Shown piece by piece: positions 19,822 through 49,766 of a stretch of 64,000 bases of DNA. Within the stretch, counting starts at the first letter, position 1. Every line of letters starts with the position of its first letter. The position numbers and the translations under genes were made by a program. The notes under the pieces were generated by a model, which did no database searches, was not told the DNA's origin, and saw nothing but the letters and a program-made list of their open reading frames with translations. Source of the DNA: Candidatus Hydrogenedens sp. GTDB lineage: Bacteria; Hydrogenedentota; Hydrogenedentia; Hydrogenedentales; Hydrogenedentaceae. The stretch covers positions 64,001-128,000 of the forward strand of contig JBMFRC010000003.1 of the NCBI GenBank assembly GCA_049968235.1, read 5' to 3'.

Positions 19822-19843
19822 TCAGTAAAAAAGGGCTTAATTT

Positions 19844-20872: not shown

Positions 20873-20923
20873 CTGAACCTAAATACCGTCAAACGGGTCA
20901 GACTTATCGGATTTGTCGGACCT

Positions 20924-22345
20924 TCAAAACACATGGATCCTTGGCTTTACCCGAATATGTGGAATTACCCTTTCATGTGTATCCATATACCACGCTAACA
21001 GTGCACATCGGTCTGCATCAATAATATGGTCATTCCCTTTCGAATACACATATTGCCCTTGAGCATTTAATACATAGGTGTGATTTGCATATTGTTGCTC
21101 CCGCTCTGCGCTTTTCGGAAATATAATTGTATGCTCCGCTAAACGCCGTTGTAGCAATTCCGTCATCCATTCTTTGGTTCGCCGTTTCTGAAGCACCCCA
21201 TTTGATAACTGCCCCGTTTCTATCATTCCTCCAAATTCGAACGCACAAACTCGATGTTCCCAATCCTTACCTGATGCCATTAATTGATGTGCCACCGCTC
21301 TACCACTATTCCCACAGTCAATCCCTATCTTACAAAAATGATAATGATTATCCAACTCTTGTATCGTCATCTGTTGCTGAACATAGTTTACATTCTCCAG
21401 ATGCATACGCAGTACACAAATCAAATACGGTGGTTCATTTTTAAAAACGATGAATTCAGAAGGGTCTCGCGAAAAGCCTAAATCACAGCCTAAATAATAC
21501 ATCCCCTTTTTTACAGGTTCCGGCAATTCCCATTTTATCTCTGACCCTTTAAGTCGAATCTCATTTGCCGGCAAACTATCATCAACGCAAAGGAGATAAT
21601 CGTCCAGATTAAACACCGCATTCATCGGTTCTCCATGCAATCCCAATACCCGATGTACATATCCTGGACTATCTCTCCCTCCGTACAACAAAGCCAGTTC
21701 AGCATCTTTCTCAGGGATAAAATCCGGATTAAGATAACTGGGCCAGTGATATTGTTCCGCCTCCGGTAAAAAAGTCATACGGTAAAATGTATTCCGAAGC
21801 CCATTCGGTACACCATAAACCCATCGTTTACCCCCACCTTTCAGGGATTGATACAATTCCCCCCAACTTGTTTCTGTCATTTCCTGTGCCTCATCTACAA
21901 TCTGCCAGTCCACATGCATCCCCTGAAAATTTATTCCACGCGGTCCTGCAATCCGACCCCATAGAGTAAATCCATTCACAAATCGTATGAAGTAGGAAGG
22001 GGAACGACGCAATTCTGCAATACCTCCTGCGAATTCCGTCGTTGTTTCAAAACGACGCACCAGTCGATTCATTACCGGGAACAAATGATTTTCACATTGT
22101 GTAGCAATTAACATGGATTTTCCCGGACAATTAACCATAGCCCAGCAGGCTATAATTTCTATTTCCGTCGTTTTCCCTACATCTCTTCCATCACAATGCA
22201 CCTTGCGTAATGCCTGTGATTCCAGAGAATTGCGTTGATAATTGCGAACTCGCCAATGCGTACCATCAACATTATGAAAGAAACGATATGCAAACAATTC
22301 CCGCCGTTGAAGTAACTGAATTAAAGTCTGTTTCAGAACGGACAC
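20924..22345 (-). CDS. phage terminase large subunit-like protein (ATPase + RNaseH-like nuclease)
   Basis: Walker A-like GRDVGKT, Walker B VDWQIVDEAQ, C-terminal acidic nuclease motifs GIDCGNSG and HIIDADRCAL. Confidence 0.6.
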   Translation of the reverse strand: MSVLKQTLIQLLQRRELFAYRFFHNVDGTHWRVRNYQRNSLESQALRKVHCDGRDVGKTTEIEIIACWAMVNCPGKSMLIATQCENHLFPVMNRLVRRFETTTEFAGGIAELRRSPSYFIRFVNGFTLWGRIAGPRGINFQGMHVDWQIVDEAQEMTETSWGELYQSLKGGGKRWVYGVPNGLRNTFYRMTFLPEAEQYHWPSYLNPDFIPEKDAELALLYGGRDSPGYVHRVLGLHGEPMNAVFNLDDYLLCVDDSLPANEIRLKGSEIKWELPEPVKKGMYYLGCDLGFSRDPSEFIVFKNEPPYLICVLRMHLENVNYVQQQMTIQELDNHYHFCKIGIDCGNSGRAVAHQLMASGKDWEHRVCAFEFGGMIETGQLSNGVLQKRRTKEWMTELLQRRLAEHTIIFPKSAEREQQYANHTYVLNAQGQYVYSKGNDHIIDADRCALLAWYMDTHERVIPHIRVKPRIHVF

Positions 22346-22392
22346 ACTACACTCCCCTGAATAAATAAAAATCAGAAATTAAAAAGACGCGA

Positions 22393-22896
22393 TTATTTTC
22401 CCGGTGGATACCACACCTTCACCTTTTTAGTTTGTCTTCCCCAACGCATTGCTTCTTTGTGTTTCTTAAAAAACAGGTCTATACTATTCCCTTTTACAGA
22501 ACCACCACGGTCTTCCACTCTGCCATAACCATAGCCCGGAATATACATAACCGTCCCAAAAGGGAAGCGACTTATATCGGCTGAAATGGTTCCCTTCTTT
22601 GCTTTAACACCACTGGCAGTCACACCTACTTTCTTGGGTTTCCCTTTATTAGGACCATGGGCAACTACCGGACGGAAATACCAATTCCTTTTCCAATTAC
22701 AGCATTTACCACATGGACAATACCCACGCGTTTCTAAAGTTAATATCTCGGAACGAGAACCCGCCTGAGGCTTAAATCGAGATGAAGTTGTAGCACAGCC
22801 CGCAGAAAAAAACAAGAATACTGTTAGCGTTAGTATCAAATATCGTCGAAGCATCTTTTCAATGTTCCTTATCCATTGTTTATTTACTTTAATCAT
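22393..22896 (-). CDS. 3D domain-containing lipoprotein (MltA-like cell-wall binding/hydrolase domain)
   Basis: Lipobox LFFSAGC; 3D-domain pattern ADISRFPFGTVMYIPGYGYGRVEDRGGSVKGNSIDLFF. Confidence 0.65.
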   Translation of the reverse strand: MIKVNKQWIRNIEKMLRRYLILTLTVFLFFSAGCATTSSRFKPQAGSRSEILTLETRGYCPCGKCCNWKRNWYFRPVVAHGPNKGKPKKVGVTASGVKAKKGTISADISRFPFGTVMYIPGYGYGRVEDRGGSVKGNSIDLFFKKHKEAMRWGRQTKKVKVWYPPGK

Positions 22897-22929
22897 ATCC
22901 TTTACTATTCTATCAAATTTGTTGAATGA

Positions 22930-23433
22930 TTAATTATCTTGATTCACAAGAATTTCTTCTTTACTTCCCACGACTAAATTCTTTTGCATCGTTCCATTGC
23001 CTTTCTCCAATTCGTGCATACAACACACCAAATCCTGAACAAGTTCCGCAATACTCATAGAAGATGTTTTTGCTTCCACTGGCTTGATATTTTCAAATTC
23101 CTGCACCAACTTGCGTTGCCGTTCCATATATTTACATAAAATCTCATAATATTGTAAAGAATGGTTTGTCTTTTCTGTTTTTTTGGAAGATTCTATACAC
23201 ACATCTTCCTTTTTAGACATCAGTGGAGATAATAGGAATTCCTGTTCCAGCCTCTGGATAAAAAAAGTGAGTATAAGCAATTCTCGCAAACGCACTTGTA
23301 GCCAAGGTGATATTTCAATTCCATTATTCTGAAACCACACTTGCAGTGCTCTATATTTTTCTCGCCATTGCCGTTTTTCATATGGCGTTAGCCATGCTTC
23401 ACCTTTTTCAATAGAATAAAATATCGAGTCCAT
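22930..23433 (-). CDS. hypothetical protein (position upstream of terminase large subunit; small-terminase-like by position only)
   Basis: Co-oriented with the 3D-domain and terminase genes; no recognisable motif. Confidence 0.35.
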   Translation of the reverse strand: MDSIFYSIEKGEAWLTPYEKRQWREKYRALQVWFQNNGIEISPWLQVRLRELLILTFFIQRLEQEFLLSPLMSKKEDVCIESSKKTEKTNHSLQYYEILCKYMERQRKLVQEFENIKPVEAKTSSMSIAELVQDLVCCMHELEKGNGTMQKNLVVGSKEEILVNQDN

Positions 23434-23792
23434 AAAAATCTCCTATTATCTTTTATTGATATCTCTAAAAATATAGGAAAAAATTTTGCCCTGAAAAGCA
23501 GATAAACCTTTGACATATTTGAAGGAACACTTCCTTGCGATAAGTTATATATGATTTGCAGAAAAAGAATATAAGTCCAACACAATGATATTGAAATTCT
23601 ATTTATTTAGCATGCCAGCGGGATTATGAAACACGATATTTTAACATATATTAATATTATAATGTAATGTAATTGTATGCATACAAATATCACTCATTTA
23701 TAAAAAATAAATATCATATAATAAAGATAGAATAATTTGAATAACTTTACTTTTAATATGTATTTATTATTTAAATAATTATTAAAATTTAC

Positions 23793-23821
23793 TTGACAAA
23801 TAAAAATATATTTATTATAAT
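23793..23821 (+). promoter_or_regulatory. consensus sigma70 promoter TTGACA-17 bp-TATAAT with AT-rich UP-like region upstream
   Basis: TTGACA at 23793-23798, 17-nt spacer, TATAAT at 23816-23821; about 100-nt leader before the pilin-like gene (SD AGGAG). Confidence 0.6.
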
Positions 23822-23929
23822 TATCCCGTAACTACAATTTAATATTTTCGTTATATTCATGTGCCCTGCATGAATAAGGATTAAATCAATCAAAGGGTTT
23901 TCAGGGCAAACCCAAGAAGGAGTTCTAAT

Positions 23930-24940
23930 ATGAGTAAAAAAGGATTCACACTCATCGAATTGCTGGTAGTCATAGCGATTATTGGCATTCTTGCGGCAAT
24001 TCTGTTGCCGGCACTTGCTCGTGCGAGGGAAGCAGCGCGTAGAAGTAGTTGTCAGAACAACCTTAAACAATGGGGACTGGTCTTCAAGATGTATTCCAAT
24101 GAATCGAAAGGAGAACGGTTCCCGCCGATATGTCTTACAGCAGACCAACGAATGAATTGTAATGTCTATCCGTTTACACTGGAAGGTTCCTATGGAATTA
24201 TTGCAGCTGGACCCAATCCGAAAGTCCTTTATCCGGAATATTTAACCGATTTAAATATTATATTCTGTCCTTCGGATTCGGCAGAGAAACCCGGACTTCA
24301 ATTTAATCCTGCAGCACAAGCGGCAGGTGTTGAACTGACAGATGTAAATATCCCGTGTAATGATGCAGTTCGTGGTATGTCTATAATAGATTCCAGTTAT
24401 AACTATGTGGGTTATGTTCTTGACCTCTGTAATGCGGATGGCACAGACCCGTTGACAGATATATCAGGATTGGCAACACTGGTAGGTGCTACAGGAGTTA
24501 CAGGAATGGGACCTGCGCAGTTGGTTGCAGCAATGCTGGTTGTATTACAGGCATACATTAACAACCCTGTAACTGGCGCCCAAAGGGCAGACGAGGACCT
24601 GGATGTAAGTTCATATGCAAATTTAGGAACACCTCCCGGACCTGTAGGTAATGGCAGACAAAATACGATATATCGGCTTCGTGAAGGTATTGAACGTTTC
24701 TTAATTACTGATATTAACAATCCTGCTGCTTCTGCCAAAGCCCAGAGTGAGACATGGATTATGGCGGATACAATCGCAACAGAAGTTGGACATTACAACC
24801 ATATTCCGGGTGGTTCAAATGTCCTCTACATGGATGGTCATGTTGAATTTATGCGTTATCAGGAAACAGGGGAACAGCCGGTTAATGGCGCGGTTGCTCG
24901 TGTCGTAGGACTGATACTAAATTCAGAGAATTTAATATAG
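23930..24940 (+). CDS. DUF1559 / H-X9-DG family prepilin-type N-terminal cleavage/methylation domain protein (type II pseudopilin-like)
   Basis: N-terminus [47 protein letters not shown]; C-terminal [17 protein letters not shown]. Confidence 0.85.
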
Positions 24941-27137: not shown

Positions 27138-27213
<76 letters not shown>

Positions 27214-27223
27214 ATTTTTTTAT

Positions 27224-27299
27224 AGGGCCGTTAGCTTAGCTGGTAGAGCAGGGGACTCTTAATCCCAAGGTCGCAGGTTCGATTCCTGCACGGCCCACC
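27224..27299 (+). tRNA. tRNA-Lys (anticodon CTT)
   Basis: Near-identical backbone to E. coli tRNA-Lys as recalled (GGGTCGTTAGCTCAGTTGGTAGAGCAG...GGTCGCAGGTTCGAATCCTGC...CCACCA); anticodon loop CTCTTAA. Confidence 0.85.
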
Positions 27300-27636
27300 A
27301 GTTTGTGAAATCTACACGGTGAATATACCGTTCCCACCTTTTAGCATGTGTAGTAATACCTCCCTTATTTTTCAGTGTAATTATCTTAACAAAAGCAGAA
27401 AATTTTTGGGGAAATAGAAATATATAACATAGACAGGTATGTAGATATTACATTTTTGTTCGCTTTATTTGTAGATGAAAAATAAATAAATGTAAAATAA
27501 ACAGGGGTACAAATACCCCTCTGTAAATACAATGCAAACGAAACTGTTGCAACTTATCTCTTTACAAAAGGATAATATTAATATAGTTTAATGAACTACC
27601 TATTTTCACAAATAGCATAAAAAAGGAAATTGTTGC

Positions 27637-28371
27637 ATGTTCAAAGGGAAAATCTTTTTTTTGTTAGTTGCTGGCATTTTTTGTATCACTCTGTTTTCAT
27701 ATGCACAAAGTAGTCCTGATATGACGAATGTTCTACCTGTTCAGCAAAATCTTACATTATGGGACATGATAAAAGCAGGTGGGGTAATACTCTGGATAAT
27801 TGGAGGTTTGGGCTTTATTGGATTGGTATGGGCATTTTATCTTCTGTTGACATTAACTCCGCGGAGGGAACTTCCTTCAACCCTTATCCGTAGATTGTTC
27901 CATTTATTACAAGCCAATGATTACAAAGGGGTGTTGGAACTTTGTGAAGGGCGAGATGAACTTATTGCCAAGATGATATTTGCTGGAGTAAAACTGGTAG
28001 GTCATGACCGCTATGTTATTCAGGACGCTATGGAAAGTGAAGGGGAACGAGGAGCGAGTATTTTATGGCAACGCATATCTTATTTGAATAATATTGCGGT
28101 CTTAGCTCCATTATTAGGTCTTTTAGGAACTGTATGGGGTATGATGCAGGCTTTTGGGGCTATCGCATTTAATGATGCTCAGGTGAAAGGGCTTACAATG
28201 GCATACAGTGTTGCCACAGCAATGGTAACTACTGCAGGTGGATTGGTCGTTGCAATTCCTGCTATGGCAATTTATTTTTATCTGCGGGGTAGAGTAAACC
28301 GAATTATTGCAGAGGTAGAAGCCATTGCCAGTGAAATGGTAGAGCTTATTTTGAGAGGAACACGTCCATGA
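27637..28371 (+). CDS. MotA/TolQ/ExbB proton channel family protein
   Basis: Three TM helices; C-terminal TolQ/ExbB signature region VATAMVTTAGGLVVAIPAMAIYFYL; 4-nt overlap with the downstream ExbD gene. Confidence 0.8.
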   Translation: MFKGKIFFLLVAGIFCITLFSYAQSSPDMTNVLPVQQNLTLWDMIKAGGVILWIIGGLGFIGLVWAFYLLLTLTPRRELPSTLIRRLFHLLQANDYKGVLELCEGRDELIAKMIFAGVKLVGHDRYVIQDAMESEGERGASILWQRISYLNNIAVLAPLLGLLGTVWGMMQAFGAIAFNDAQVKGLTMAYSVATAMVTTAGGLVVAIPAMAIYFYLRGRVNRIIAEVEAIASEMVELILRGTRP

Positions 28372-28862
28372 GAATCCGTCGTAATTATGAAAATGAGCCC
28401 GAACCCATTCAAATGGCTCCATTAATTGATATTGTATTTTTGACCCTTGTTTTTTTTATGGCAACAACTGTATATGGCGTTCTGGAGTCGGAAATTGACA
28501 TTACTTTACCGACCGCAGAAACTTCGGTTCCAACAACGCGTAGTCAGGGAGAAATTTATATTAATCTAAAAGCAGATGGGTCCATTGTTGTTAATAATCG
28601 TTCTGTGTCCCTATCGGAATTGCAGGAGGTATTGAACAAGGTGTCCCAATTTTTCCCCGGCAGTTCAGTTATTATCCGGGGCGACCAGAGTGCCATGTTG
28701 GGCAATGCCATACGGGTTCTGGATTGTTGCAGGAAAGCCAATATACAAAATGTAGCGTTCTCCGCAATTAATGAAAAACAAACAACCGATTCAGAACATT
28801 CCGTAAACGCAAATACTTCTCCAGATGCAGTTTCTCCAGCCACAGAGCCCACAAAACAATAA
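28368..28862 (+). CDS. ExbD/TolR biopolymer transport protein
   Basis: PLIDIVFLTLVFFMATT TM segment followed by a periplasmic domain; typical ExbD size. Confidence 0.8.
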   Translation: MRIRRNYENEPEPIQMAPLIDIVFLTLVFFMATTVYGVLESEIDITLPTAETSVPTTRSQGEIYINLKADGSIVVNNRSVSLSELQEVLNKVSQFFPGSSVIIRGDQSAMLGNAIRVLDCCRKANIQNVAFSAINEKQTTDSEHSVNANTSPDAVSPATEPTKQ

Positions 28863-28875
28863 ACAGGATTCACAT

Positions 28876-31263
28876 ATGATATTTACGAAGCATTTATATA
28901 AATTATCCATGATTTATTTCTTAATGGTATGTAGTTTCGCCTGGACACAATCCTCTGAATCTCTTTCGGGAGAAAACACACAACTTGATTTTGCTAATGG
29001 TCTCTACAGCAGACAGTTCTTTAAAGAAGCCATTGATGAGTATAAAAAGTTTATTGCTCAATATCCGGATTCTCCTAAAATTGCTGAGGTTTATCTTCGT
29101 TTGGGAAAATCTGCTCTTGTTGAAAAACAATATGAAACCGCTATGGGTGCCTTTGACCAGGTGATTAACAAAGCAACAGATGCCAATCAACGAACAGAAG
29201 CCATTCTTCGTAAAGGTGAATGCTTTTATTATCTAAAACGTTGGGCAGAATGTAGTGAGACATTAAAACCCTTAATTGAGGAGACCACACCAAAGGATTA
29301 TCGTCCCCGTGCTATGTATTTTTATGCCCGTGCACTTGTACAAACGCAGAATTTTGAAACTGCAATACCTGTATTACAAAACATGGTAAAAACTTTTCCG
29401 GAATATCCCCTGGTACCTTTTGCAAAGTATGTTTTAGGGAACATTTACACTCGTCTTAATCAATTAGAAAATGCTGTATCCATTTTATCTGACGTGGCAT
29501 CTAACGAAAAGATAGACCCACAATTACGAATGGAGTGCAATTTCCGTGTCGCAGAGATATACTCCCAGTTAGGTTGGTATGAAGGGGCGATGAATGCATA
29601 TCAAACACTCAAAACACAGTTCAAAGAAGGTCCCTATAAAGAAAAATCGGATTTTGGATATTTATGGACATTATATCAGGCAAAGAAATTTCCAGAAGCA
29701 GTAAATGAAGGGAAAAACTTTATTCAGAATTATCCGCAATCTGAGAAGAAGCCTTTTGCCATGTATATCCTTGCCAATTCATTGCTGGAACAAAATATGC
29801 TGGATGAAGCCCTGTCTTTTTATAACTCCTTACGCCAACAATATGCCGATACTTCTTACGCTACCGAATCGCTATATAAAATTGCATGGGCACACTATTT
29901 AAAGAACGACCTGAACATTGCAAAAACGAATGTAACCGAGTTTCTGGACAAAGCCGGGGAGTCTCCATTTCGAGCGGATGCTTACTTTTTGCTGGGTTCA
30001 TTATATACTGCCGAAGGAAATTATGAGGATGCTATGGAAGAGTTTCAGATGGTATATGAAAAATACCCAACCTCCAAATTTGCACCTGAGGCATTATACA
30101 AATCGGCGGAATGTGCAGAATTATTAGGCATCATCAAACCTGCTATGCAATTATACAATCGTTTTATCCAGACCTATCCCCAGCATACATTAATTGTTTC
30201 TGCCTATCTCCACTATGGGGATTTACAGGGTAAAGATGGGAATTGGGAAGAAGCACTGAAAACTTATCTCAAAGCAAAAGAAATCTCAGAGAATAATCCT
30301 CTACAAGAACAAGTATTCCTACGATTAGCACATTGTTATGAACAGTTACATAAAGGAGAAGACGCCTTTCAAATTTATCAGGATTTCATCAGTAGGTTCC
30401 CACAATCTCAATATGTTCAAGATATGAAGTTAAAATTGGGAACCTATTATCTAAAAGAAAAGAAGGACTCTATAAAATCAATCGATTCCTTGCAAAATTT
30501 ATTAGCCCAGAATCCTGCTCCGACCATTGCAGGTCAAGCCTGGCTGGCAATCAGCATCGCCTATTATGAAGTAAAAGATTATGAAAAATCTGCGGAAGCG
30601 TTATTGAAAACCATTGTGGACTACCCCCAGGTTACAGTAGGAGAAGAACAGTTCGCATGGTTAGCCCAATACTATCTTGATGCGCAAAAATGGGAGCAGG
30701 CACGTCAGGTGTTAAAACGAATGCAGGAGGTATTAAAAGATTACCCTGCTCCTCAAAGATTGCAATTCCGATATGCAGAATGTATTCATAATTTAGGGAA
30801 ACTGGATGAAGCCATAAAAGAATACCAGAAAGTTGTGGATATGTCCCCTTCTTCCACATCCGCTACAGAATCTTTGTATCGCATAGCTCAAATATATGAA
30901 CAAAAAAATCAGGTATCTCAAGCCTTAGAATTTTATGAACGCTGTGCAAATAATGGTGGAAGTGAAACAAGTGCCCGTGCTCAATTTCGAATTTCAGAAA
31001 TTTATGAGAACCAGAACGAATTTGAAAAAGCAGGAAAAAATTATCTAAAAGTGGCTATTCTTTATCTCCATCCGGAACTTTCTCCTGAAGCATTATGGCG
31101 TTCCGGAAATTGCTATTTAAAAATCAATGAAAAGGGAAACGCACAGAGAGCATTTAAAGAATTATTAGATGATTTTCCTTCGCATCCTCTGGCAGAAAAA
31201 GTAAAAGGCATTCTGTCCAGTGAAAAAGAAAATACACCTGCATTATCAATAGAACTGAGGTAG
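28876..31263 (+). CDS. secreted tetratricopeptide-repeat protein (about 795 aa, many TPRs)
   Basis: Signal peptide MIFTKHLYKLSMIYFLMVCSFAWTQS from ATG 28876 (the track's 28825 start overlaps exbD); repeated A..Y..G......A...Y TPR periodicity throughout. Confidence 0.8.
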   Translation: MIFTKHLYKLSMIYFLMVCSFAWTQSSESLSGENTQLDFANGLYSRQFFKEAIDEYKKFIAQYPDSPKIAEVYLRLGKSALVEKQYETAMGAFDQVINKATDANQRTEAILRKGECFYYLKRWAECSETLKPLIEETTPKDYRPRAMYFYARALVQTQNFETAIPVLQNMVKTFPEYPLVPFAKYVLGNIYTRLNQLENAVSILSDVASNEKIDPQLRMECNFRVAEIYSQLGWYEGAMNAYQTLKTQFKEGPYKEKSDFGYLWTLYQAKKFPEAVNEGKNFIQNYPQSEKKPFAMYILANSLLEQNMLDEALSFYNSLRQQYADTSYATESLYKIAWAHYLKNDLNIAKTNVTEFLDKAGESPFRADAYFLLGSLYTAEGNYEDAMEEFQMVYEKYPTSKFAPEALYKSAECAELLGIIKPAMQLYNRFIQTYPQHTLIVSAYLHYGDLQGKDGNWEEALKTYLKAKEISENNPLQEQVFLRLAHCYEQLHKGEDAFQIYQDFISRFPQSQYVQDMKLKLGTYYLKEKKDSIKSIDSLQNLLAQNPAPTIAGQAWLAISIAYYEVKDYEKSAEALLKTIVDYPQVTVGEEQFAWLAQYYLDAQKWEQARQVLKRMQEVLKDYPAPQRLQFRYAECIHNLGKLDEAIKEYQKVVDMSPSSTSATESLYRIAQIYEQKNQVSQALEFYERCANNGGSETSARAQFRISEIYENQNEFEKAGKNYLKVAILYLHPELSPEALWRSGNCYLKINEKGNAQRAFKELLDDFPSHPLAEKVKGILSSEKENTPALSIELR

Positions 31264-31267
31264 ATGT

Positions 31268-33082
31268 ATGTCCCGGGCGAACACATTAAATAATCGTTCT
31301 ATCTCCTCAGGAACACTCGAATTCCTGTGGAGTAAACGAATTCGCTTTGGGATTAGTGTTATCCTGAGTATCCTTTTATATTTCTCGTTAATTTACACTT
31401 CGCAATACATACCTCTTTTCACAACCGGACCGAATAGAATTCCTTTAAACATTCGTGTTAAGTTGCTTGATGAAAAAATAACTGTTTCCCAGCAAATAGA
31501 AGAACCTGTCAGCACATCTTTATCTACTCGTCCCATTTCTTTCCAGAATTTTATTGAAGAACTACTTCCCGCTACAGAAATACCTGAAACTCCTCATAGT
31601 CCATCCTTACAAAAGGAAGCATTAGCAAAACAGGCAGTAACAGAACCCATTGACCGACCCACAGAACCGCTTACGCCGGACGAAATGATACAGCAAATAG
31701 AAGAACAAATCCTCATGATTGAAAAGGAATCCGAAAAAGACACCGTAGATGTTGCCCGACGATTATTGCCTCCCCCCGAAGAAAACATATTGAAACCCGG
31801 TGAAACACCTGCTTTTTCATTGGATAATACAACTCTTCCCTCACAGGGAACGCAAATTTCTTCTTCTGCCATACCGCGTATCGTTGGCACATCACCTTCT
31901 ACAGAACAAACGGGTTCTGATACCGGAGAAACAAATCCAGTCCCTGTAGTATTAGAACCCATAGAACCTCCTATTCCGTTAGAGCAAGTTTTAGAACAGG
32001 AAATTATTGAACAACCTATTATTGAGGAAGCACAAAAAGAAAAGGAAAACCGTCCTTATGAATTCTGGGATGACCTGTTCGAGTTACAGTTAAAAACTTA
32101 CTTTGAACAGGATAAAACGCAGGGATTCTTTCAATTAGTTATCTCTCCTAAAAAAGATGCCAAAATTATCCCATTACCCAAACAGGTTGCCTTCATTATT
32201 GACAGTTCCGCAAGTATCGGACAACGAAAATTGGACCGAACGGTGCAGGGAGTTTGCGAGGCTTTACAACAACTTCGTGATGATGACCTCTTTAATATTA
32301 TTTTGTTCCGTGAACGGGCTACCTTCTTTGCAGAGGGATATATAAAAGCAACACCTGAAAATAAAAATTCTGCTCGGAAATATTTGAAACAGATACCTTC
32401 CATCGGACAAACGGATGTCTTTAATTCCGTTCGCCAAATTATACAACTTCCCACAACCCCAGGATTGCCTAATATCCTTTGGTTATACTCCGATGGGAAA
32501 CCGACCATCGGGCTTCGTGATACCCGTGCTATTATTGCCAATCTCACGTTAGAAAATCAGGGAAGATACGAAATATTTACAACAGGCGGAGGAAACACTG
32601 TTGACCGATACTTGCTTGAATTACTGGCTTATTTGAATCGGGGATTTTGTGTAATTCGAAATAACATAGAGCAGATTTCAACAATGATACCGCAGGCATT
32701 TCAGAAGATACAAAACCCCATACTTATTGATGTATCTATGGACTTTGGTGCTATACCTCGCGAGGAGATATATCCCTTTATTTTCCCCAATTTCTATCAG
32801 GGCGTTCCTGTGTCTATTTTTGGAAAGTTTAATCCCCAGACTCAGAAAAATTTTGTTTTCCGTCTCCAGGGTAATTCTGCTGGGAAACGAAAAGAAATTA
32901 TTTTCCGTACAGATTTATCTCATTCCGATTCGGGTGATTTTGAGATTGCACAAAGGTGGGCTTTTCATAAAGCTTTTTATATAATAGGTAGAATTGTTCG
33001 TGAGGGCGAAAAACCAGAACTATTACAAATATTAAAAGAACTAAAAGAAAAATATAATGTAAAAACAACTTATACACCATGA
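31268..33082 (+). CDS. TonB-like architecture protein: N-terminal TM anchor + Pro/Glu-rich linker + C-terminal vWA domain (MIDAS DSSAS)
   Basis: TM FGISVILSILLYFSLIYTS; P/E/T-rich region about 100-250; vWA VAFIIDSSASIGQRKLDRTV...LFNIILFRERAT; 4-nt ATGA overlap with downstream kinase. Confidence 0.75.
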   Translation: MSRANTLNNRSISSGTLEFLWSKRIRFGISVILSILLYFSLIYTSQYIPLFTTGPNRIPLNIRVKLLDEKITVSQQIEEPVSTSLSTRPISFQNFIEELLPATEIPETPHSPSLQKEALAKQAVTEPIDRPTEPLTPDEMIQQIEEQILMIEKESEKDTVDVARRLLPPPEENILKPGETPAFSLDNTTLPSQGTQISSSAIPRIVGTSPSTEQTGSDTGETNPVPVVLEPIEPPIPLEQVLEQEIIEQPIIEEAQKEKENRPYEFWDDLFELQLKTYFEQDKTQGFFQLVISPKKDAKIIPLPKQVAFIIDSSASIGQRKLDRTVQGVCEALQQLRDDDLFNIILFRERATFFAEGYIKATPENKNSARKYLKQIPSIGQTDVFNSVRQIIQLPTTPGLPNILWLYSDGKPTIGLRDTRAIIANLTLENQGRYEIFTTGGGNTVDRYLLELLAYLNRGFCVIRNNIEQISTMIPQAFQKIQNPILIDVSMDFGAIPREEIYPFIFPNFYQGVPVSIFGKFNPQTQKNFVFRLQGNSAGKRKEIIFRTDLSHSDSGDFEIAQRWAFHKAFYIIGRIVREGEKPELLQILKELKEKYNVKTTYTP

Positions 33083-34740
33083 TGATACTTGCAAGTAAAT
33101 GGATTGAATTTCTTCTCTGTCATTCTGCGGAACAAAAAAGGTTTCTTAATGAGACCTATGGTAATGCAGGGCAAGAGCGAATGAAATTAATCATTCAAAC
33201 CTTACAGAAATTTGTTGATACATTTGGAGATAAACATGTCTTCATTACAAGATGCCCCGGTAGAATAAACCTTCGTGGAATGCACATAGATACACACGGT
33301 GGTTTTTTAAATCTAATGACCATCGAACAAGAAGTTATTCTGGTAGGACATCCCCGTGATGATGATACTTTTTGTATATACAATTTAGAATCCAAACATA
33401 AACCCTTTCTCTCTTCTTTCCAGACTTTGCAGAACGAGTACTCCTTAGAATCTTCCTGGAAAAATATTTGTCATCACGCTCAAAATCGCACAGATACTTC
33501 CCGTCATTGGCACCAATATATTACGGGCATACTTCTTCGTTTTGCTCAACAAACAAAAAGACCTCTTACCACAGGTATGGAAATTGTTATAGGCGGGGAT
33601 ATTCCCGAAGGTTCTGCATTGAGTTCCTCACACGCTTTGTGTATTGTCCTGCTTCAATCTCTTATGTATAACAACCATTATGATTTTGACATAACCACTC
33701 AGTTGAAAATGGTTCAGGATGCGGAATGGTTCACGGGTGCAAGAAGTGGACTTAGCGACCAGACAGCAGAGTTGTTAGGGAAAAAAAACACTTTATTAGG
33801 TATTCGTCTCAATCCTGAAACGGCAGAAATACTGGAAAAGGACTATTATCCTTTCCCGAAAGATGTTTCTGTGATTATTACCAATTCCAGAACACAACGT
33901 GATATAAGTTCAACTCATGCCGTTTCATATATCAAAAATCGTTTTGCCTACTCTGTAGCATTAACCATATTAAAGGAAATTATGAAAAATCAAGGAGTAG
34001 AAAAAGAGATATTAGAAAGTTTCCAAACCCTATCTGATTTTTCACCGGAGCGACTGGGAGGTATCCGAAACCTTTATACTCTATTTCGTGCCATTCCTCA
34101 TGCCTTACCGGTTCAAACATTGTTCGAAGATTTTGATATTCCCGGGATTCATGAGATATTTGAGCGATATTATGGACATCTCCAACGAGAAGAACATCCG
34201 CAAGTAGTCCCTATACGGGGACCTTTAGTTTTTGGAATTTGCGAATCCATTCGTGCCCGCCACTTCTTTGAAGCCATCCAGCAGGGGGATGTATTGATGG
34301 CAGGTTATTTAATGACGTTAGGACATAATGGTGACCGTATCCTTGATAGTGCAGGAAATCCATTCCGTCGTGAAGTAACTGATGACATGTTATTTGTATA
34401 CGAGGACCTTCAAATCGCTCCCTATTCGCTTACAGGCGATTTTGGTGCAAGCACTCCTGTCCTAGATAAATTGGTGGACATAGCAAACCAAAACGGTGCT
34501 TTGGGTTCTTCCCTTACAGGGGCTGGATTAGGTGGGGTCGTGATAAGTCTCTGTAGAGAGCATGATGTCCATGCAATTAAAAAGGCATTACAAAACTGGC
34601 TTTGTTCTCATGAATATGCACAACTGTTAAATCGCACATCTCCGTTATCACCTGAGGAAGCAGAAAAGTCTGTGTTTATCCATAACTCTACGCAAGGGGC
34701 AAATATAATGCCTGCTCCGAACCTATCTTTTGTTCATTAA
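33079..34740 (+). CDS. GHMP family sugar kinase (galactokinase-like, extended)
   Basis: RCPGRINLRGMHIDTHGG (galactokinase signature-like), GHMP motif GGDIPEGSALSSSHALC, GARSGLSDQTAELLGK, C-terminal GAGLGGVVISL. Confidence 0.75.
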   Translation: MMILASKWIEFLLCHSAEQKRFLNETYGNAGQERMKLIIQTLQKFVDTFGDKHVFITRCPGRINLRGMHIDTHGGFLNLMTIEQEVILVGHPRDDDTFCIYNLESKHKPFLSSFQTLQNEYSLESSWKNICHHAQNRTDTSRHWHQYITGILLRFAQQTKRPLTTGMEIVIGGDIPEGSALSSSHALCIVLLQSLMYNNHYDFDITTQLKMVQDAEWFTGARSGLSDQTAELLGKKNTLLGIRLNPETAEILEKDYYPFPKDVSVIITNSRTQRDISSTHAVSYIKNRFAYSVALTILKEIMKNQGVEKEILESFQTLSDFSPERLGGIRNLYTLFRAIPHALPVQTLFEDFDIPGIHEIFERYYGHLQREEHPQVVPIRGPLVFGICESIRARHFFEAIQQGDVLMAGYLMTLGHNGDRILDSAGNPFRREVTDDMLFVYEDLQIAPYSLTGDFGASTPVLDKLVDIANQNGALGSSLTGAGLGGVVISLCREHDVHAIKKALQNWLCSHEYAQLLNRTSPLSPEEAEKSVFIHNSTQGANIMPAPNLSFVH

Positions 34741-35835
34741 AAACGATTTAATCCCTTCCACAACATACTCTACCTCCTCAGAGGTCATTTCGGGATAGAT
34801 AGGTAATGCCAATACTTCCTGCGATGCTTTTTCTGCCTCTGGATATTTCTCCTTTGAGGAAACAAACTTACGAAAACAGGGTTGTTGATGAATAGGAATA
34901 GGATAGAACACTGCGGTAGAAATACCGCGTTCCTGAAGAAACTGCCGTGCTTTATCGCGGTCAGGTATCCGAATAACATATTGATGATATATAGCATAAC
35001 TACCTTGCCGTTCCACAGGAAGTTGTAATTCCGATAATTCTTTCAAATGTTCTGTGTAATATCGAGCTATTTCCCGTCGTTTCTCATTCCATTTTTTCAA
35101 ATAACGAAGTTTTACACTTAATATACCTGCTTGCAAAGTATGTAGATGGCTGTTATACCCAATGCATTCATGTTCGTAAGTCTTTTTTGAGCCATGATTA
35201 CGCAATGTTAAAATTTTTTCTGCTATTTGTTCATTATTTGTCGTGATTAATCCCCCTTCTCCCATGGCTCCTAAATTTTTTGTTGGGTAAAAACTAAAGG
35301 CACCCACATCACCCCAACTACCCGCATTTTTTCCATATAAACGAGCTCCAATGGCTTGAGCAGAATCCTCAAGAATATAGAGAGAATAGCGTTCTGCCAG
35401 GGAAACAAACGCTTGCATATCCACACATTGACCGTATAAATGTACCGGTAGTAGAACCTTTGTTCGTTCAGAAATTTTCTGCTCCACTTTCACCGGATTT
35501 AAATGATAGGTATCAGACTCAATATCTGCAAACACAGGTATACCCCCTGCCAGCACAATGCTACTGGCAGTAGCAATAAAAGAAAATGGGGTTGTGATTA
35601 CTTCATCACCCGATTGCAAACCTAAAGCCCTTAATGCAATTACCAGTGCATCTGTTCCTGAACCAACACCTATAGCATAAGAACATCGAATAAATGCTTT
35701 TATTTCTTCCTCAAACCGTATGAGCACATCCCCTCCCCGGAATTGCTGGGTTTCCAGAACTTCTTCTATTGCCTTTAATATCTCTTCTTTGATTTGTTTA
35801 TATTGAGCTTTTAAATTTAGCATGGGGATTTTCAT
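34723..35835 (-). CDS. DegT/DnrJ/EryC1/StrS family PLP-dependent sugar aminotransferase
   Basis: GSGTDALVIALRALGL..GDEVITTPFSFIATA...; family-typical length 370 aa. Confidence 0.85.
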   Translation of the reverse strand: MKIPMLNLKAQYKQIKEEILKAIEEVLETQQFRGGDVLIRFEEEIKAFIRCSYAIGVGSGTDALVIALRALGLQSGDEVITTPFSFIATASSIVLAGGIPVFADIESDTYHLNPVKVEQKISERTKVLLPVHLYGQCVDMQAFVSLAERYSLYILEDSAQAIGARLYGKNAGSWGDVGAFSFYPTKNLGAMGEGGLITTNNEQIAEKILTLRNHGSKKTYEHECIGYNSHLHTLQAGILSVKLRYLKKWNEKRREIARYYTEHLKELSELQLPVERQGSYAIYHQYVIRIPDRDKARQFLQERGISTAVFYPIPIHQQPCFRKFVSSKEKYPEAEKASQEVLALPIYPEMTSEEVEYVVEGIKSFLMNKR

Positions 35836-40341: not shown

Positions 40342-41460
40342 TTATTTTGAGGGACTTATGCCCAGAGTTCTTAAAATTTCAAAGGCTGTCTGTTTCCCTG
40401 CTCCGGGGGAACCTAATTTCTCCCTTAACTGTTTAAAATCATATATCATACTTCCCCTCAAAGTCGAATTTTGAACAAGTGAAACTAATCGGTTGTATAT
40501 ATGTAATGGAGTGGCATCGTTTTGTATAAGTTCCGGAACAACTTCTCGTCCCATTAATATATTAACAATACCAATATGTGAAATGTTTACCAGCAATCGT
40601 GCAATGTAATATGTTAATGGATGGGTGCGGTAAATAAGAACAAAAGGCATTCCAGAAAGTGCGGATTCCAATGTTGCCGTTCCCGAAGATACGATACCCG
40701 CATGAGATATTTGCAATACCTGCTCTATTCCTCCTTCATAAATTTCAATAGCAAAATCGCCAGATATGTCTCTAATAAGTTCTACACAACTCCTGTTGAA
40801 CGCAGGCACGACAAATTTTGTTTGGGGATATACAGATAGAAACTGTTTTGCTGTCTCAAGCATAACAGGAAAATTTCTTTTTATTTCTTGAGGTCTACTA
40901 CCCGGCAATAAACCGATTGTATAAGGGGGGGTATAATCCAGTTCTTTTCGCATCGTAGGTATTTTGTCTAATAGAGGATGCCCTACATAAACACATTCAA
41001 CACCTTCTTGTTCATATATCGGCACTTCAAATGGGAAAATAACCAGCACTTTTCGAACCCATCGGGCAATTTTTTTCACCCGATTTTTTTTCCATGCCCA
41101 TACCTGTGGGCTTATGTAATAAATAATAGGGATATTTAACTCTTTTATCATTGGGGCGATATGCAAATTAAAGCCAGGATAGTCCACCAGAACGACCCCG
41201 GTCGGATTATGCTCTTTAATCCAATTCAGTGTATTTTTCATTAATTGTCTTATATCCCCTAAATGTTTTACAACCTCCACAAAGCCCATAATCGCATTGG
41301 TACATAAATCATACAACAACACGAAACCTTCCTTCTCCATATTTTGTCCCCCTAAACCCACATGTTTGACCTCCGGTGCCAATTGCCGCAATTCGCGTAT
41401 GACATTGGCACAATGCAAATCGGCTGACGGGTCACCTACCACCCAGAAAATTGTGCTCAC
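40342..41460 (-). CDS. lpxB: lipid-A-disaccharide synthase
   Basis: N-terminus IFWVVGDPSADLHCANVIRELRQ typical of LpxB; 4-nt overlap with upstream gene. Confidence 0.85.
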   Translation of the reverse strand: MSTIFWVVGDPSADLHCANVIRELRQLAPEVKHVGLGGQNMEKEGFVLLYDLCTNAIMGFVEVVKHLGDIRQLMKNTLNWIKEHNPTGVVLVDYPGFNLHIAPMIKELNIPIIYYISPQVWAWKKNRVKKIARWVRKVLVIFPFEVPIYEQEGVECVYVGHPLLDKIPTMRKELDYTPPYTIGLLPGSRPQEIKRNFPVMLETAKQFLSVYPQTKFVVPAFNRSCVELIRDISGDFAIEIYEGGIEQVLQISHAGIVSSGTATLESALSGMPFVLIYRTHPLTYYIARLLVNISHIGIVNILMGREVVPELIQNDATPLHIYNRLVSLVQNSTLRGSMIYDFKQLREKLGSPGAGKQTAFEILRTLGISPSK

Positions 41461-42422
41461 TTGTAACTCCGTATTTGTTCAACAATTTGACAAGAAAGTT
41501 CCAATGCTCTTAAACCCTCTTCCCCGGATACTTCGGGAGGTGTTCCATCGCGAACCGCAGAGACAAATGCCTTTATCTCTGCCTGTAAAGGCTCTTCATT
41601 GGATACTTGAATTGGTGTTATCTCTATAAACTTCATCGGATTACTATTCGGTGGAATGTCTCCTCCCTTTTTACGATACACAAGTAAACTTTGCGAACTG
41701 TAATCGGTTGAAACATATTCACTATCCGAGAATATGCGTATTTTACGCATCCGGTCCATCGAGACACGACTTGCTGTTAAATTGGCAACACAACCCGACT
41801 GAAAACGAAGACGCACATTTGCAATGTCTTCAGAATCAGAAAAAACCGATACGCCCACAGCATCCATAGATATTACAGAACTACGGGTAAGAGTTAGAAT
41901 AATATCAATATCATGTATCATTAAATCGTGAACCACACTCACATCGGTACCCCTACCCGGGAAAGGGCTTAAACGATGGCACTCAATAAAACGCGAATTG
42001 TTTATTAAATTGAACAAAGCACGAACTGCACCATTAAATCTTTCCACATGCCCTACCTGCAAGATACGATTATTCTTTTGGGCAACAGATACCATCTTTT
42101 TCCCCTCTTCTACCGTTGCCGAAATGGGCTTTTCTACTAATACATGAACCCCTGCTTCCAGTAATGGTATCGCCACATTCGCATGAGTAGATGTCGGAGT
42201 TACTACTGAAACAAGGTCTAACGGTTCCTTCAAGATTTCATCTATGGATGAAAAAACCGAAACCTGAAAGTCCGTCTTTGCTTTCAACCTCCGCTCTTCA
42301 GAAATATCTACAACCCCAACCAATTCTACATCCGGAAGAGTCGAATAAATACGGACATGGTGAAATCCTAAATATCCAAATCCAATAACTCCCACTCGCA
42401 ATTTACGGTTCTTTTTACTCAT
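41457..42422 (-). CDS. Gfo/Idh/MocA family oxidoreductase located between lpxA and lpxB (GnnA-like position)
   Basis: Rossmann LRVGVIGFGYLGFHH; VLVEKPI motif; gene context within the lipid A cluster. Confidence 0.7.
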   Translation of the reverse strand: MSKKNRKLRVGVIGFGYLGFHHVRIYSTLPDVELVGVVDISEERRLKAKTDFQVSVFSSIDEILKEPLDLVSVVTPTSTHANVAIPLLEAGVHVLVEKPISATVEEGKKMVSVAQKNNRILQVGHVERFNGAVRALFNLINNSRFIECHRLSPFPGRGTDVSVVHDLMIHDIDIILTLTRSSVISMDAVGVSVFSDSEDIANVRLRFQSGCVANLTASRVSMDRMRKIRIFSDSEYVSTDYSSQSLLVYRKKGGDIPPNSNPMKFIEITPIQVSNEEPLQAEIKAFVSAVRDGTPPEVSGEEGLRALELSCQIVEQIRSYK

Positions 42423-42494
42423 TAATTTCTTTCCAGATTAAACTTAAAACTTTATCCTTTAACCCCAAGATATTCTATCACACCAAAACAGAAA

Positions 42495-46464: not shown

Positions 46465-46508
46465 GATAAGGTTTTAAGTTTGATTTAACGAACAGAGGAG
46501 GCTTTTTT

Positions 46509-47225: not shown

Positions 47226-47273
47226 GTTTTCAATGAATACAAAAGGCGATAGAACAAGAGAGGAGGTGATTTT

Positions 47274-47471
47274 ATGCTCAGACCATCCACGGTAGCCAGG
47301 CGGAGAAGTAAGTATGATGCGATAAATAATTTATGTGAAGATGTAAGCGAATTGCGGGAGCGTATTTTGCGGTTGGAGCAGTCGTTATTTCGTGGGCTAT
47401 GGCTTTTGATAGCCAATCTGCTTGGGGTTGTGTTTTCTTTAATACAACAGGGGATATTTTTAAACCATTGA
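47274..47471 (+). CDS. small protein with coiled-coil N-terminus and hydrophobic C-terminus
   Basis: SD GAGGAGG 6 nt upstream; ELRERILRLEQSLF then LWLLIANLLGVVFSLI. Confidence 0.3.
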   Translation: MLRPSTVARRRSKYDAINNLCEDVSELRERILRLEQSLFRGLWLLIANLLGVVFSLIQQGIFLNH

Positions 47472-47488
47472 AGAAAGGAGGTGGTTTT

Positions 47489-48214: not shown

Positions 48215-48242
48215 ATAACAGGAAGAAGAAAGGAGGCAAATT

Positions 48243-48623: not shown

Positions 48624-48640
48624 CAGGAAAGGAGGTTATT

Positions 48641-49690: not shown

Positions 49691-49766
49691 TCATACATTG
49701 GAAAAATAATCGGGAGAGGCTTGTAAGTTGTTTTTAACTTATAAGCCTCATCAGGAAAGGATAATT

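What the first reader, a model, noticed from the sequence alone, without database searches (positions are those of the whole stretch)
27637..34740. ExbB–ExbD–TPR operon in which the TonB-position protein carries a vWA domain, followed by an overlapping GHMP sugar kinase
A MotA/TolQ/ExbB gene, an ExbD gene, a roughly 795-aa TPR protein and a 604-aa protein form a co-oriented cluster. The ExbB and ExbD genes, and the vWA and kinase genes, overlap by 4 nt; the others are about 5-15 nt apart. The 604-aa protein has exactly TonB-like topology: an N-terminal TM, then a long Pro/Glu/Thr-rich linker. Its C-terminus, however, is a vWA domain with an intact MIDAS (DSSAS), not a TonB C-terminal domain. 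A galactokinase-like GHMP kinase follows with an ATGA overlap. This suggests a proton-motive-force-energised vWA effector (adhesion or aerotolerance-like, cf. BatA/B) that has not been described with ExbBD coupling.
Basis: partly seen in the sequence, partly recalled or inferred. Interest (0 to 1): 0.55.

Follow-up and report, generated by a model that had tools for sequence, protein, structure and literature searches.

The report
Motor-coupled vWA envelope protein operon
This is a real, strongly conserved four-gene operon in which a proton-driven ExbB/ExbD-type membrane motor sits beside a large repeat protein and a membrane-anchored adhesion-type (vWA) protein built like TonB; a 2025 paper already proposed this kind of machine from computer analysis, and nobody yet knows what it does.

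Summary
In this Candidatus Hydrogenedens window, exbB-like (27637-28371), exbD-like (28368-28862), a 795-aa periplasmic TPR gene (28876-31263), a 604-aa gene (31268-33082) and a galactokinase-like GHMP kinase (33079-34740) are co-oriented and tightly packed.

The 604-aa protein has an N-terminal TM helix, a linker of about 220 aa, and a C-terminal module homologous to inter-alpha-trypsin-inhibitor heavy chains. That module is a vWA domain with an intact MIDAS, a beta-sandwich and helices. It is not a TonB C-terminal domain.

The order Q-R-TPR-vWA is kept in 57 of 57 related loci with enough flank. These span Hydrogenedentota, Phycisphaerae, Omnitrophota and unnamed metagenome lineages. The kinase is a Hydrogenedentota-only neighbour and is not core.

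Relatives carry a TonB/TolA-type SxxxH motif in the TM helix and a conserved strand resembling the 'motor box'. This window has SxxxY. Tyr occurs only where ExbB TM1 has Gly-Phe instead of Ser-Val, which suggests a helix-to-motor contact.

The claim of novelty fails. Williams-Jones et al. 2025 (PMC12204202) already proposed 'vWA force transducers' next to tolQR and TPR genes. This is a variant of that class in phyla they did not list. Its function is untested.

The parts
27547..27576 (+). sigma-70-like promoter candidate about 60 nt upstream of exbB (TTGCAA-18-GATAAT)
   Evidence: This is a consensus match only, and such matches are not enriched over shuffled sequence. It lies downstream of two tRNA genes and a hairpin at 27503-27520.
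27637..28371 (+). ExbB/TolQ-like proton-channel subunit, 244 aa, with an N-terminal signal-like segment
   Evidence: Pfam MotA_ExbB 1e-28. It is about equally distant from TolQ and ExbB of the PDB, E 2e-11 to 1e-8. The pore threonines T165 and T198/T199 are kept in 59-61 of 61 loci. TM1 reads 'GLGF' at aa 57-60.
28368..28862 (+). ExbD/TolR-like subunit, 164 aa; 4-nt ATGA overlap with exbB
   Evidence: Pfam ExbD 2e-25. TM aspartate D21 is present in 61 of 61 loci. PDB ExbD 2e-10, TolR 3e-4. Overlap read.
28876..31263 (+). 795-aa periplasmic TPR protein with a Sec-type signal peptide and about 8 CpoB/YbgF- or BamD-like TPR units
   Evidence: TIGR02795 285.8 bits in 8 stretches; BamD/YfiO and PorW/SprE models below their cut-offs. 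Homologues have AxA-type signal peptides and no consistent lipobox. It sits directly upstream of the vWA gene in every locus.
31268..33082 (+). 604-aa TonB/TolA-like anchored vWA protein (putative force transducer)
31340..31408 (+). TM helix (aa 25-47) with S30-x3-S34-x3-Y38. Y38 occupies the position of the TonB/TolA-type His.
   Evidence: AF2 helix 12-47, pLDDT 73-86. Column 38 is His in 36, Tyr in 24 and Phe in 1 of 61 loci. In 61 of the 69 more distant clusters that could be scored, the TM helix carries [STAG]xxxH.
31451..31471 (+). Motor-box-like segment I-R-V-K-L-L-D (aa 62-68); family consensus [F/I/Y]-[R/N]-V-x-[L/V/I]-x-[D/E]
   Evidence: V64 is V or I in 57 of 61. The same 'F-R-V/L' motif lies about 25 aa after the TM helix in distant clusters. 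The comparison with the TonB/TolA motor box rests on PMC12204202 and is an inference.
31676..31792 (+). Most conserved part of the linker (aa 137-175): a predicted helix followed by V-A-R-R-L-L-x-P
   Evidence: AF2 helix 137-166. Column entropies of 0.4-1.9 bits, with R164, R165 and P169 nearly invariant. Its role is unknown; a docking site for ExbD or the TPR protein is an inference.
32069..33079 (+). ITIH-like C-terminal module (aa 268-604): VIT-remnant beta-hairpin, vWA (aa 306-479), beta-sandwich (aa 484-549) and helices (aa 559-596)
   Evidence: pLDDT about 90. Foldseek ITIH1 6fpy, E 7e-22 over 359 columns. hmmsearch ITIH4 1.5e-32 and ITIH1 1.4e-24. TIGR03788 matches only positions 246-562 of its 629.
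32201..32215 (+). MIDAS motif D312-S-S314-A-S316, completed by T382 and D409
   Evidence: Invariant in alignments A1 and A2 across phyla.
33079..34740 (+). 553-aa galactokinase-like GHMP sugar kinase; 4-nt ATGA overlap with the vWA gene. A lineage-specific neighbour, not core.
   Evidence: Pfam and NCBIfam. PDB galactokinases 4e-19. In Hydrogenedentota it is adjacent in 41 loci, displaced by 0.4-2.6 kb in 7 and absent in 13; it is present in 0 of 4 loci from other phyla.

Best explanation
The core is a four-gene envelope machine, exbB/tolQ-like, exbD/tolR-like, TPR and vWA, of the Ton/Tol type.

Proposed mechanism:
1. An ExbB5-ExbD2-type proton motor in the inner membrane supplies force.
2. 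The 604-aa protein takes the place of TonB/TolA. Its single TM helix docks on the outside of the motor at ExbB TM1.
3. A short conserved strand just after the membrane (aa 62-68) is gripped by the periplasmic ExbD dimer.
4. The rest of the roughly 220-aa linker reaches across the periplasm.
5. The ITIH-like vWA head binds a still unknown partner through its metal-ion (MIDAS) site.
6. Proton flow is thereby turned into a pull on that partner.
7. The secreted 795-aa TPR protein, built of CpoB/BamD-like units and always encoded directly upstream, is an obligatory periplasmic partner. It probably binds the conserved linker motifs, as CpoB binds TolA.

The downstream GHMP sugar kinase is co-transcribed in this genus but is a lineage-specific passenger.

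Shown here: domain identities, motor residues, MIDAS, synteny, and the TM and strand motifs.
Inferred: physical coupling, the direction of force and the role of the TPR protein.
Unknown: the ligand and the cellular function.
For: 1. Synteny. The order Q-R-TPR-vWA on one strand is kept in 57 of 57 loci with full upstream flank. These run from 87% down to about 30% identity in Hydrogenedentota, and include Phycisphaerae, Omnitrophota and an unclassified bacterium, with unrelated flanks. The same order is found in 3 of 5 sampled, more distant metagenome clusters; a fourth keeps only the TPR-vWA pair.

2. The motor looks functional. ExbD D21 is present in 61 of 61 loci; ExbB T165 and T198/T199 in 59-61 of 61.

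3. The anchor is TonB/TolA-like. There is one N-in TM helix. [S/T/A]xxxH occurs in 36 of 61 close relatives and in 61 of the 69 distant clusters that could be scored. A conserved F-R-V-x-L-x-D strand lies about 25 residues after the helix.

4. Covariation. Tyr at the His position occurs only with ExbB TM1 'LGF' (24 of 24) and never with 'LS[VIL]' (0 of 26). All 8 outgroup loci have Ser plus His. About 7 His/Tyr switches are inferred, and every Tyr lies on the Gly-Phe background.

5. The head is a binding module. The MIDAS residues are invariant across phyla and the fold is ITIH-like.

6. Independent literature. AF3 models of a related motor-plus-vWA set place the TM helix at the TonB/TolA site through its His (PMC12204202).
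Against: - No experiment exists for any member. PMC12204202 states that no deletion phenotype is known.
- This window has Tyr, not His, at the key TM position. The 'L' and second 'S' of the SHLS motif are not recognisable.
- The covariation is not corrected for phylogeny, and TPR columns show equal or higher mutual information.
- Two of five distant relatives lack adjacent motor genes.
- No complex could be modelled with these tools.
- A canonical TonB or TolA elsewhere in the genome cannot be excluded. Only a 64-kb window and roughly 8-kb flanks were searched.
Confidence: 0.68

Rival explanations
1. Passive neighbour. The TPR and vWA proteins form a static periplasmic or inner-membrane scaffold. 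The adjacent ExbBD pair energises an ordinary TonB or TolA encoded elsewhere, and the clustering reflects only shared regulation.
For: The TPR-vWA pair occurs without adjacent motor genes in L090, and the vWA gene stands alone in L088. This window lacks the His that TonB needs. Whether a separate tonB exists could not be tested.
Against: Synteny holds in 57 of 57 loci across phyla with unrelated flanks. A TonB-type SxxxH and a motor-box-like strand would have no reason to be conserved in a passive anchor. His/Tyr tracks ExbB TM1 Ser/Gly. No TonB_C-like ORF was found in the window or in about 1 Mb of flanks.
Confidence: 0.15
2. Tol-Pal analogue. The machine does the Tol job, tethering or constricting the outer membrane and coordinating it with cell-wall synthesis. 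The vWA head replaces TolA domain III and the giant CpoB-like TPR protein replaces CpoB.
For: ExbB and ExbD score best against the TolQ and TolR models. The TPR protein is made of tol_pal_ybgF units. No Pal-like or TolA-like ORF is found in any flank. In L081 the operon runs on into an O-antigen-ligase gene and a GT4 glycosyltransferase gene, and here it lies beside lipid A genes.
Against: All Tol model scores are far below their cut-offs. No TolB or Pal partner was identified. The downstream genes are otherwise heterogeneous, including heparinase, a P-type ATPase and GlyRS. Whether Hydrogenedentota have Pal or TolB elsewhere is unknown.
Confidence: 0.2
3. Adhesion or gliding machine, like Myxococcus Agl-Glt. 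The motor drives a vWA adhesin-type module, with TPR proteins as periplasmic connectors, for surface movement or attachment. Williams-Jones et al. favour this reading.
For: The parts list matches Agl-Glt: a TolQR-like motor, TonB-like proteins, TPR lipoproteins and the vWA adhesin CglB (PMC9946355 and PMC11761067, listed). There is a weak GltE hit. Pilin-like N_methyl genes lie near several loci.
Against: The vWA head is tethered to the inner membrane by about 220 residues and has no outer-membrane export signal, so it can hardly reach the cell surface. No other glt-like genes are nearby. Pilin-like DUF1559 genes are very common in these phyla, so their proximity may be chance (this frequency rests on my own knowledge, not on a tool result).
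Confidence: 0.12
4. The GHMP kinase is a functional fifth component, for example sugar-1-phosphate supply for an envelope glycan handled by the machine.
For: There is a 4-nt overlap here. The kinase is adjacent or nearby in 48 of 61 Hydrogenedentota loci, and it is retained even when another gene is inserted between it and the vWA gene, as in L011 and L034.
Against: It is absent in 13 Hydrogenedentota loci with 3-8 kb of downstream flank, and in every locus from other phyla. It is a cytoplasmic enzyme with no obvious link to a periplasmic machine.
Confidence: 0.12
5. Bat-type aerotolerance or MoxR-vWA system.
For: It has a membrane-anchored vWA protein and a TPR protein. One distant locus (L088) has MoxR and DUF58 about 5 kb away.
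Against: There is no MoxR or DUF58 in the window or in the syntenic loci. The BatC model scores 51 bits against a cut-off of 175. The vWA domain is ITIH-like.
Confidence: 0.03

Closest known systems
'vWA force transducers' proposed by Williams-Jones et al. 2025 (Mol Biol Evol 42:msaf138; exemplars from Tichowtungia aerotolerans)
   Same: An inner-membrane TM helix with a TonB/TolA-type motif, a disordered linker with a motor-box strand, and a vWA C-terminal domain in place of TonB_C. The gene is adjacent to tolQ-like, tolR-like and TPR genes. The function is unknown.
   Different: - Here there is one tolR-like gene and one transducer, not two of each, and the order is Q-R-TPR-vWA.
- The head is ITIH-like with a complete MIDAS. 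The Tichowtungia proteins read VFI(L)DADK and lack DxSxS.
- Sequence similarity is limited to about 50-60 residues of the vWA core (BLASTP 8e-5; hhalign 93%).
- Hydrogenedentota do not appear in the paper's main text. Omnitrophota appear only in its Tol-Pal catalogue (SI 1), not among the phyla listed for this family.
- This genus has Tyr in place of the His.
TonB / TolA (Ton and Tol-Pal systems)
   Same: N-in single TM helix with SxxxH in most relatives, a post-membrane strand, a long periplasm-spanning linker, and a gene next to exbB/exbD-type genes. A CpoB-like TPR partner is present, as in Tol-Pal.
   Different: - There is no TonB_C or TolA domain III; the head is a roughly 335-aa ITIH-like vWA module.
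- No TolB or Pal lies nearby.
- The TPR protein is about three times the size of CpoB.
Inter-alpha-trypsin-inhibitor heavy chains and bacterial VIT-vWA proteins (e.g. TIGR03788 sortase targets)
   Same: The vWA domain with MIDAS, the following beta-sandwich and the C-terminal helices are homologous (E 1e-32 to 1e-24; rmsd 3.9 A over 359 columns).
   Different: The VIT domain is reduced to a beta-hairpin. The protein is tethered to the inner membrane rather than secreted. It scores far below the TIGR03788 cut-off (104 against 552 bits).
Myxococcus Agl-Glt gliding machinery
   Same: It combines a TolQR-type motor, TonB-like anchors, TPR proteins and a vWA protein (papers listed).
   Different: There the vWA protein (CglB) is a separate outer-membrane lipoprotein and the anchors keep TonB_C domains. 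About 17 genes are involved there, against 4 here.

Membership tests
TonB family | C-terminal TonB_C domain (PF03544/PF13103) that binds TonB boxes | tested here: not met
   Pfam finds only vWA models. The AF2 model and Foldseek give ITIH1 and no TonB-like fold.
TonB family | N-terminal TM helix with the S-x3-H (SHLS) motif | tested here: inconclusive
   The window has S34-x3-Y38. His is at this column in 36 of 61 close relatives and in 61 of the 69 distant clusters that could be scored. The L and second S of SHLS are not recognisable.
TonB family | Gene adjacent to exbB-exbD | tested here: met
   The TPR gene is intercalated between exbD and the vWA gene.
vWA force transducers (Williams-Jones 2025) | TM helix, then a disordered linker with a motor-box strand, then a vWA C-terminal domain | tested here: met
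   The strand itself is inferred from the conserved [F/I]-R-V-x-L-x-D motif; AF2 does not predict it in the monomer.
vWA force transducers (Williams-Jones 2025) | Conserved His in the TM helix that contacts the motor | tested here: not met
   It is Tyr38 in this window and in the whole Hydrogenedens genus. His is present in the majority of the family.
vWA force transducers (Williams-Jones 2025) | Synteny with tolQ-like, tolR-like and TPR genes | tested here: met
   57 of 57 loci. There is a single tolR-like gene, whereas the paper's Tichowtungia locus and often its PVC relatives have a pair.
vWA force transducers (Williams-Jones 2025) | Sequence homology to the Tichowtungia exemplars | tested here: inconclusive
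   Only a local match of 49-60 residues in the vWA core. The exemplar sequences were retyped from the paper's supplementary PDF and may contain small errors.
Tol-Pal system | tolB and pal (OmpA_C lipoprotein) with tolQRA | tested here: not met
   Nothing was found in the window between 13.7 and 48 kb. No Pal-like ORF occurs in the window or in any locus flank. The rest of the genome could not be searched.
Tol-Pal system | TolQ and TolR equivalog scores | tested here: not met
   TIGR02796 scores 82 against a cut-off of 221; TIGR02801 scores 55 against 127.
Bat aerotolerance / MoxR-vWA systems | MoxR AAA+ ATPase and DUF58 genes together with BatA-E | tested here: not met
   They are absent from the window flanks and from syntenic loci. 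BatC scores 51 against a cut-off of 175.
ITIH / VIT-vWA proteins | VIT domain followed by a MIDAS vWA domain and the ITIH C-terminal region | tested here: inconclusive
   The vWA domain and C-terminal region are met. The VIT domain (PF08487) is not detected; only a two-strand remnant at aa 271-294 remains.
Anti-phage defence systems with MotAB-like motors (e.g. Zorya) | Match to PADLOC models | tested here: not met
   None of the five proteins gave a hit.

The most novel reading that the evidence does not exclude
The Q-R-TPR-(ITIH-like MIDAS vWA) operon is a third functional class of Ton/Tol-type machine, widespread in Hydrogenedentota, Omnitrophota, Phycisphaerae and other uncultured lineages. 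In it the motor pulls on a metal-dependent, integrin-like (possibly catch-bond) vWA head instead of a TonB/TolA domain. It may serve as the outer-membrane tethering or division system of phyla that lack a recognisable TolA-TolB-Pal set. The His-to-Tyr change in the transducer helix, seen only after a Ser-to-Gly change in ExbB TM1, would then be a natural record of the helix-to-motor contact.
Probability: 0.2. Interest if true: 0.8.

Novelty: new variant of a known kind. Interest (0 to 1): 0.42.

Why it matters
Ton and Tol are the two established ways in which diderm bacteria send inner-membrane energy to the outer membrane through a TonB/TolA-type anchor. A third cargo domain on the same chassis would widen that principle.

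This window and its relatives make the 2025 in-silico proposal firmer and easier to test:
- The chassis recurs in at least 150 protein clusters at 50% identity.
- An intact metal-binding site is conserved.
- An obligatory giant TPR partner is always present.
- A natural His/Tyr against Ser/Gly covariation points to specific residues to mutate.

It adds little conceptual novelty, because the class has already been published.

Tried and rejected
- The search for homologous proteins with the cross-phylum alignment A2 returned the same 16 proteins as the first search. It gave no gain.
This is weak negative evidence: single-sequence searches, flanks only.
- PADLOC gave no hits.
- Rfam at gathering threshold found only two tRNAs.
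- No terminator-like site with a strong stem and T tract lies at any gene junction on the + strand inside the operon. Promoter-like matches are not enriched over shuffled sequence.
- The Tol-Pal catalogue in the paper's supplement lists a 'Candidatus Hydrogredientes' page in its contents, but no such text is held. What the authors found for this phylum is therefore unknown.
- A literature search for Hydrogenedentes plus TonB gave nothing useful.
- Mutual information of His/Tyr against all columns of ExbB, ExbD, TPR and vWA is confounded by phylogeny. Several TPR columns score higher than the ExbB TM1 columns. I therefore rely on the tree-ordered pattern and call it suggestive only.
- Downstream genes in loci that lack the kinase are heterogeneous and give no functional clue.
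- A complex model (motor plus transducer plus TPR) could not be built, because the structure tool folds single chains only.


Full report
**1. Observation**

The window (GC about 39%) comes from a Candidatus Hydrogenedens species. The closest proteins are annotated as such, and a 100%-identical fragment lies in GCA_049971155.1.

Five co-oriented ORFs occupy 27637-34740. Profile searches identify them as follows:
- MotA/TolQ/ExbB.
- ExbD/TolR.
- A TPR protein made of about eight YbgF/CpoB- or BamD-like units.
- A vWA protein.
- A galactokinase-like GHMP kinase.

Reading the junctions confirms two ATGA overlaps, at 28368-28371 and 33079-33082. It also shows a 13-nt gap before the most plausible TPR start (ATG 28876 after AGGA, giving 795 aa) and a 4-nt gap before the vWA gene. 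Two tRNA genes and a hairpin precede the operon.

**2. The 604-aa protein**

The AlphaFold2 model, built from 13 sequences, gives three regions:
- A single N-terminal TM helix.
- A mostly disordered region containing helices at 137-166 and 238-260.
- A confident C-terminal module (aa 268-600, pLDDT about 90).

The C-terminal module consists of a beta-hairpin, a vWA domain, a beta-sandwich and two helices. It is homologous to inter-alpha-trypsin-inhibitor heavy chains:
- By sequence: ITIH4 1.5e-32 and ITIH1 1.4e-24.
- By fold: 6fpy, E 7e-22, 359 columns, rmsd 3.9 A.

The MIDAS residues D312, S314, S316, T382 and D409 are invariant within Hydrogenedentota and across phyla.

The linker is not a mere spacer. 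Conserved islands lie at aa 62-68, 85-95, 126-134 and 144-175, and the last is as conserved as the vWA core.

**3. Conservation of the gene set**

A scan of one genome per species returned 80 loci. ORFs of these loci were scored against the five window proteins.
- All 57 loci with enough upstream flank keep ExbB-ExbD-TPR-vWA on one strand, despite unrelated flanks.
- Five of the 80 scan loci come from Phycisphaerae, Omnitrophota and an unclassified bacterium; four of them have full upstream flank and count among the 57.
- The GHMP kinase follows directly in 41 Hydrogenedentota loci, is displaced by an inserted gene in 7 and is absent in 13. It is never present in the other phyla.

The core is therefore four genes, and the kinase is an inherited neighbour in one phylum.

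An exhaustive profile search of 1.84 billion representatives gave the following:
- About 60 full-length Hydrogenedentota-type clusters.
- At least 90 further clusters of 535-615-aa proteins that match over the C-terminal module.
- Of the 69 of these that could be scored, 61 have an N-terminal TM helix carrying [STAG]xxxH. Many also show an F-R-V/L motif about 25 residues later.

Five of these clusters were looked up on their contigs. Three show Q-R-(TPR-like protein of about 785-816 aa)-vWA, one shows TPR-vWA without the motor genes, and one shows the vWA gene alone.

**4. Evidence for coupling to the motor**

The motor residues are intact in every locus: ExbD D21, ExbB T165 and T198/T199.

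The transducer helix has S30 (54 of 61), S/A/T34 and, at position 38, His (36), Tyr (24) or Phe (1). S-x3-H is the hallmark of the TonB and TolA helices; this statement rests on established knowledge and on PMC12204202.

This window and its genus have Tyr. On a tree built from the TPR and vWA head sequences, the pattern is as follows:
- Tyr occurs only where ExbB TM1 reads L-G-F (24 of 24).
- Tyr never occurs where ExbB TM1 reads L-S-[V/I/L] (0 of 26).

All eight outgroup loci combine Ser with His. Parsimony infers about seven His/Tyr switches, and every Tyr lies on the Gly-Phe background.

TM1 of ExbB/TolQ is where TonB and TolA helices dock (from the literature, as summarised). The pattern therefore fits a direct contact. 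It is not corrected for phylogeny and is only suggestive.

**5. Prior knowledge**

Full-text searches find one relevant paper: Williams-Jones et al. 2025 (PMC12204202).

- A TonB/TolA-like helix with a conserved His.
- A motor box.
- A short domain II.
- A vWA C-terminal domain.

The paper finds them in Proteobacteria, Planctomycetes, Verrucomicrobia, Bacteroidetes and Rhodothermaeota. [quoted passage not shown] AF3 models place the helix at the TonB/TolA site. No phenotype is known.

The Tichowtungia exemplars, retyped from the supplement, share only a local match of 49-60 residues with the window protein. They lack the DxSxS MIDAS.

Hydrogenedentota do not appear in the paper's main text. 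Omnitrophota appear only in its Tol-Pal catalogue (SI 1), not in the list of phyla given for this family.

I therefore file the finding as a variant of a known, still hypothetical class:
- One TolR and one transducer.
- An ITIH-like head with a complete MIDAS.
- A giant CpoB-like TPR partner.
- Phyla not listed for the class.
- A Tyr variant of the key helix residue.

**6. Function**

Nothing in the flanks fixes the function.
- No TonB_C, TolB, Pal, MoxR or DUF58 genes lie nearby.
- There is no match to defence-system models.
- Downstream genes vary.

The motor scores slightly better against Tol than against Ton models, though far below the cut-offs. The TPR protein is built of CpoB-type units. 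In one lineage the operon continues into O-antigen-ligase and glycosyltransferase genes. These hints favour an envelope-maintenance role of the Tol kind over surface adhesion, but only weakly.

An inner-membrane tether of about 220 residues would keep the vWA head inside the periplasm or at the inner face of the outer membrane. This is an inference, and it argues against a role as a surface adhesin.

**7. Verdict**

- The class is already proposed in the literature.
- This locus is a well-conserved variant from new phyla with some new supporting evidence.
- No function is known.

Interest is moderate.

Noticed in passing
window 27139-27300 (+): tRNA-Gly(GCC) and tRNA-Lys(CTT) lie in the 677-nt gap upstream of exbB. 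A GC-rich hairpin follows at 27503-27520.
   Followed up: partly
window 45193-53648 (+): Prophage-like head module: portal protein (phrog_3753, 6e-51), major head protein at 48641-49690 (phrog_3922, 4e-45), and several ORFs with no family. The region coincides with a jump in GC skew to between +0.2 and +0.33.
   Followed up: partly
window 34723-35835 (-) and 40342-43337 (-): A DegT-family aminotransferase converges on the kinase gene and overlaps its 3' end by 18 nt. Further on lie LpxB, a GFO/IDH/MocA oxidoreductase and an LpxA-like acyltransferase. The oxidoreductase plus aminotransferase pair resembles GnnA/GnnB, which would give a GlcN3N-type lipid A. That resemblance is my inference and was not tested.
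   Followed up: no
window 17941-24940; L089 275-1744; L090 11612-13774: Type IV pilin-like or T2SS genes (N_methyl/DUF1559 pilin, T2SSE ATPase, T2SSF) recur within a few kb of the operon, in this window and in two distant loci. This may be chance, since from my own knowledge such genes are very common in these phyla.
   Followed up: no
window 31268-33082, aa 85-95 and 126-134: Two short conserved linker motifs, L-x-T-R-P-G-S-V-x-D-L and E-x-L-x-R-E-H-D-L, have no counterpart that I know of in TonB or TolA. They are conserved within Hydrogenedentota but not clearly outside it.
   Followed up: partly
L011 9800-12223; L034 9816-12368: In some Hydrogenedentota a heparinase II/III-like gene or a P-type cation ATPase gene is inserted between the vWA gene and the kinase. 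The kinase is still retained immediately after the insert.
   Followed up: partly
L088 13920-15692: One distant vWA homologue has no motor or TPR genes beside it, but a MoxR-DUF58 pair lies about 5 kb away on the opposite strand. This may be a link to Bat/MoxR-type systems in that lineage.
   Followed up: no
window 20924-22345 (-), 22930-23433 (-), 46509-48623 (+): Several sizeable ORFs have no Pfam family: 473 aa, 167 aa, 238 aa and 271 aa. The 126-aa ORF at 48243-48623 has no PHROG match and was not scanned against Pfam.
   Followed up: no
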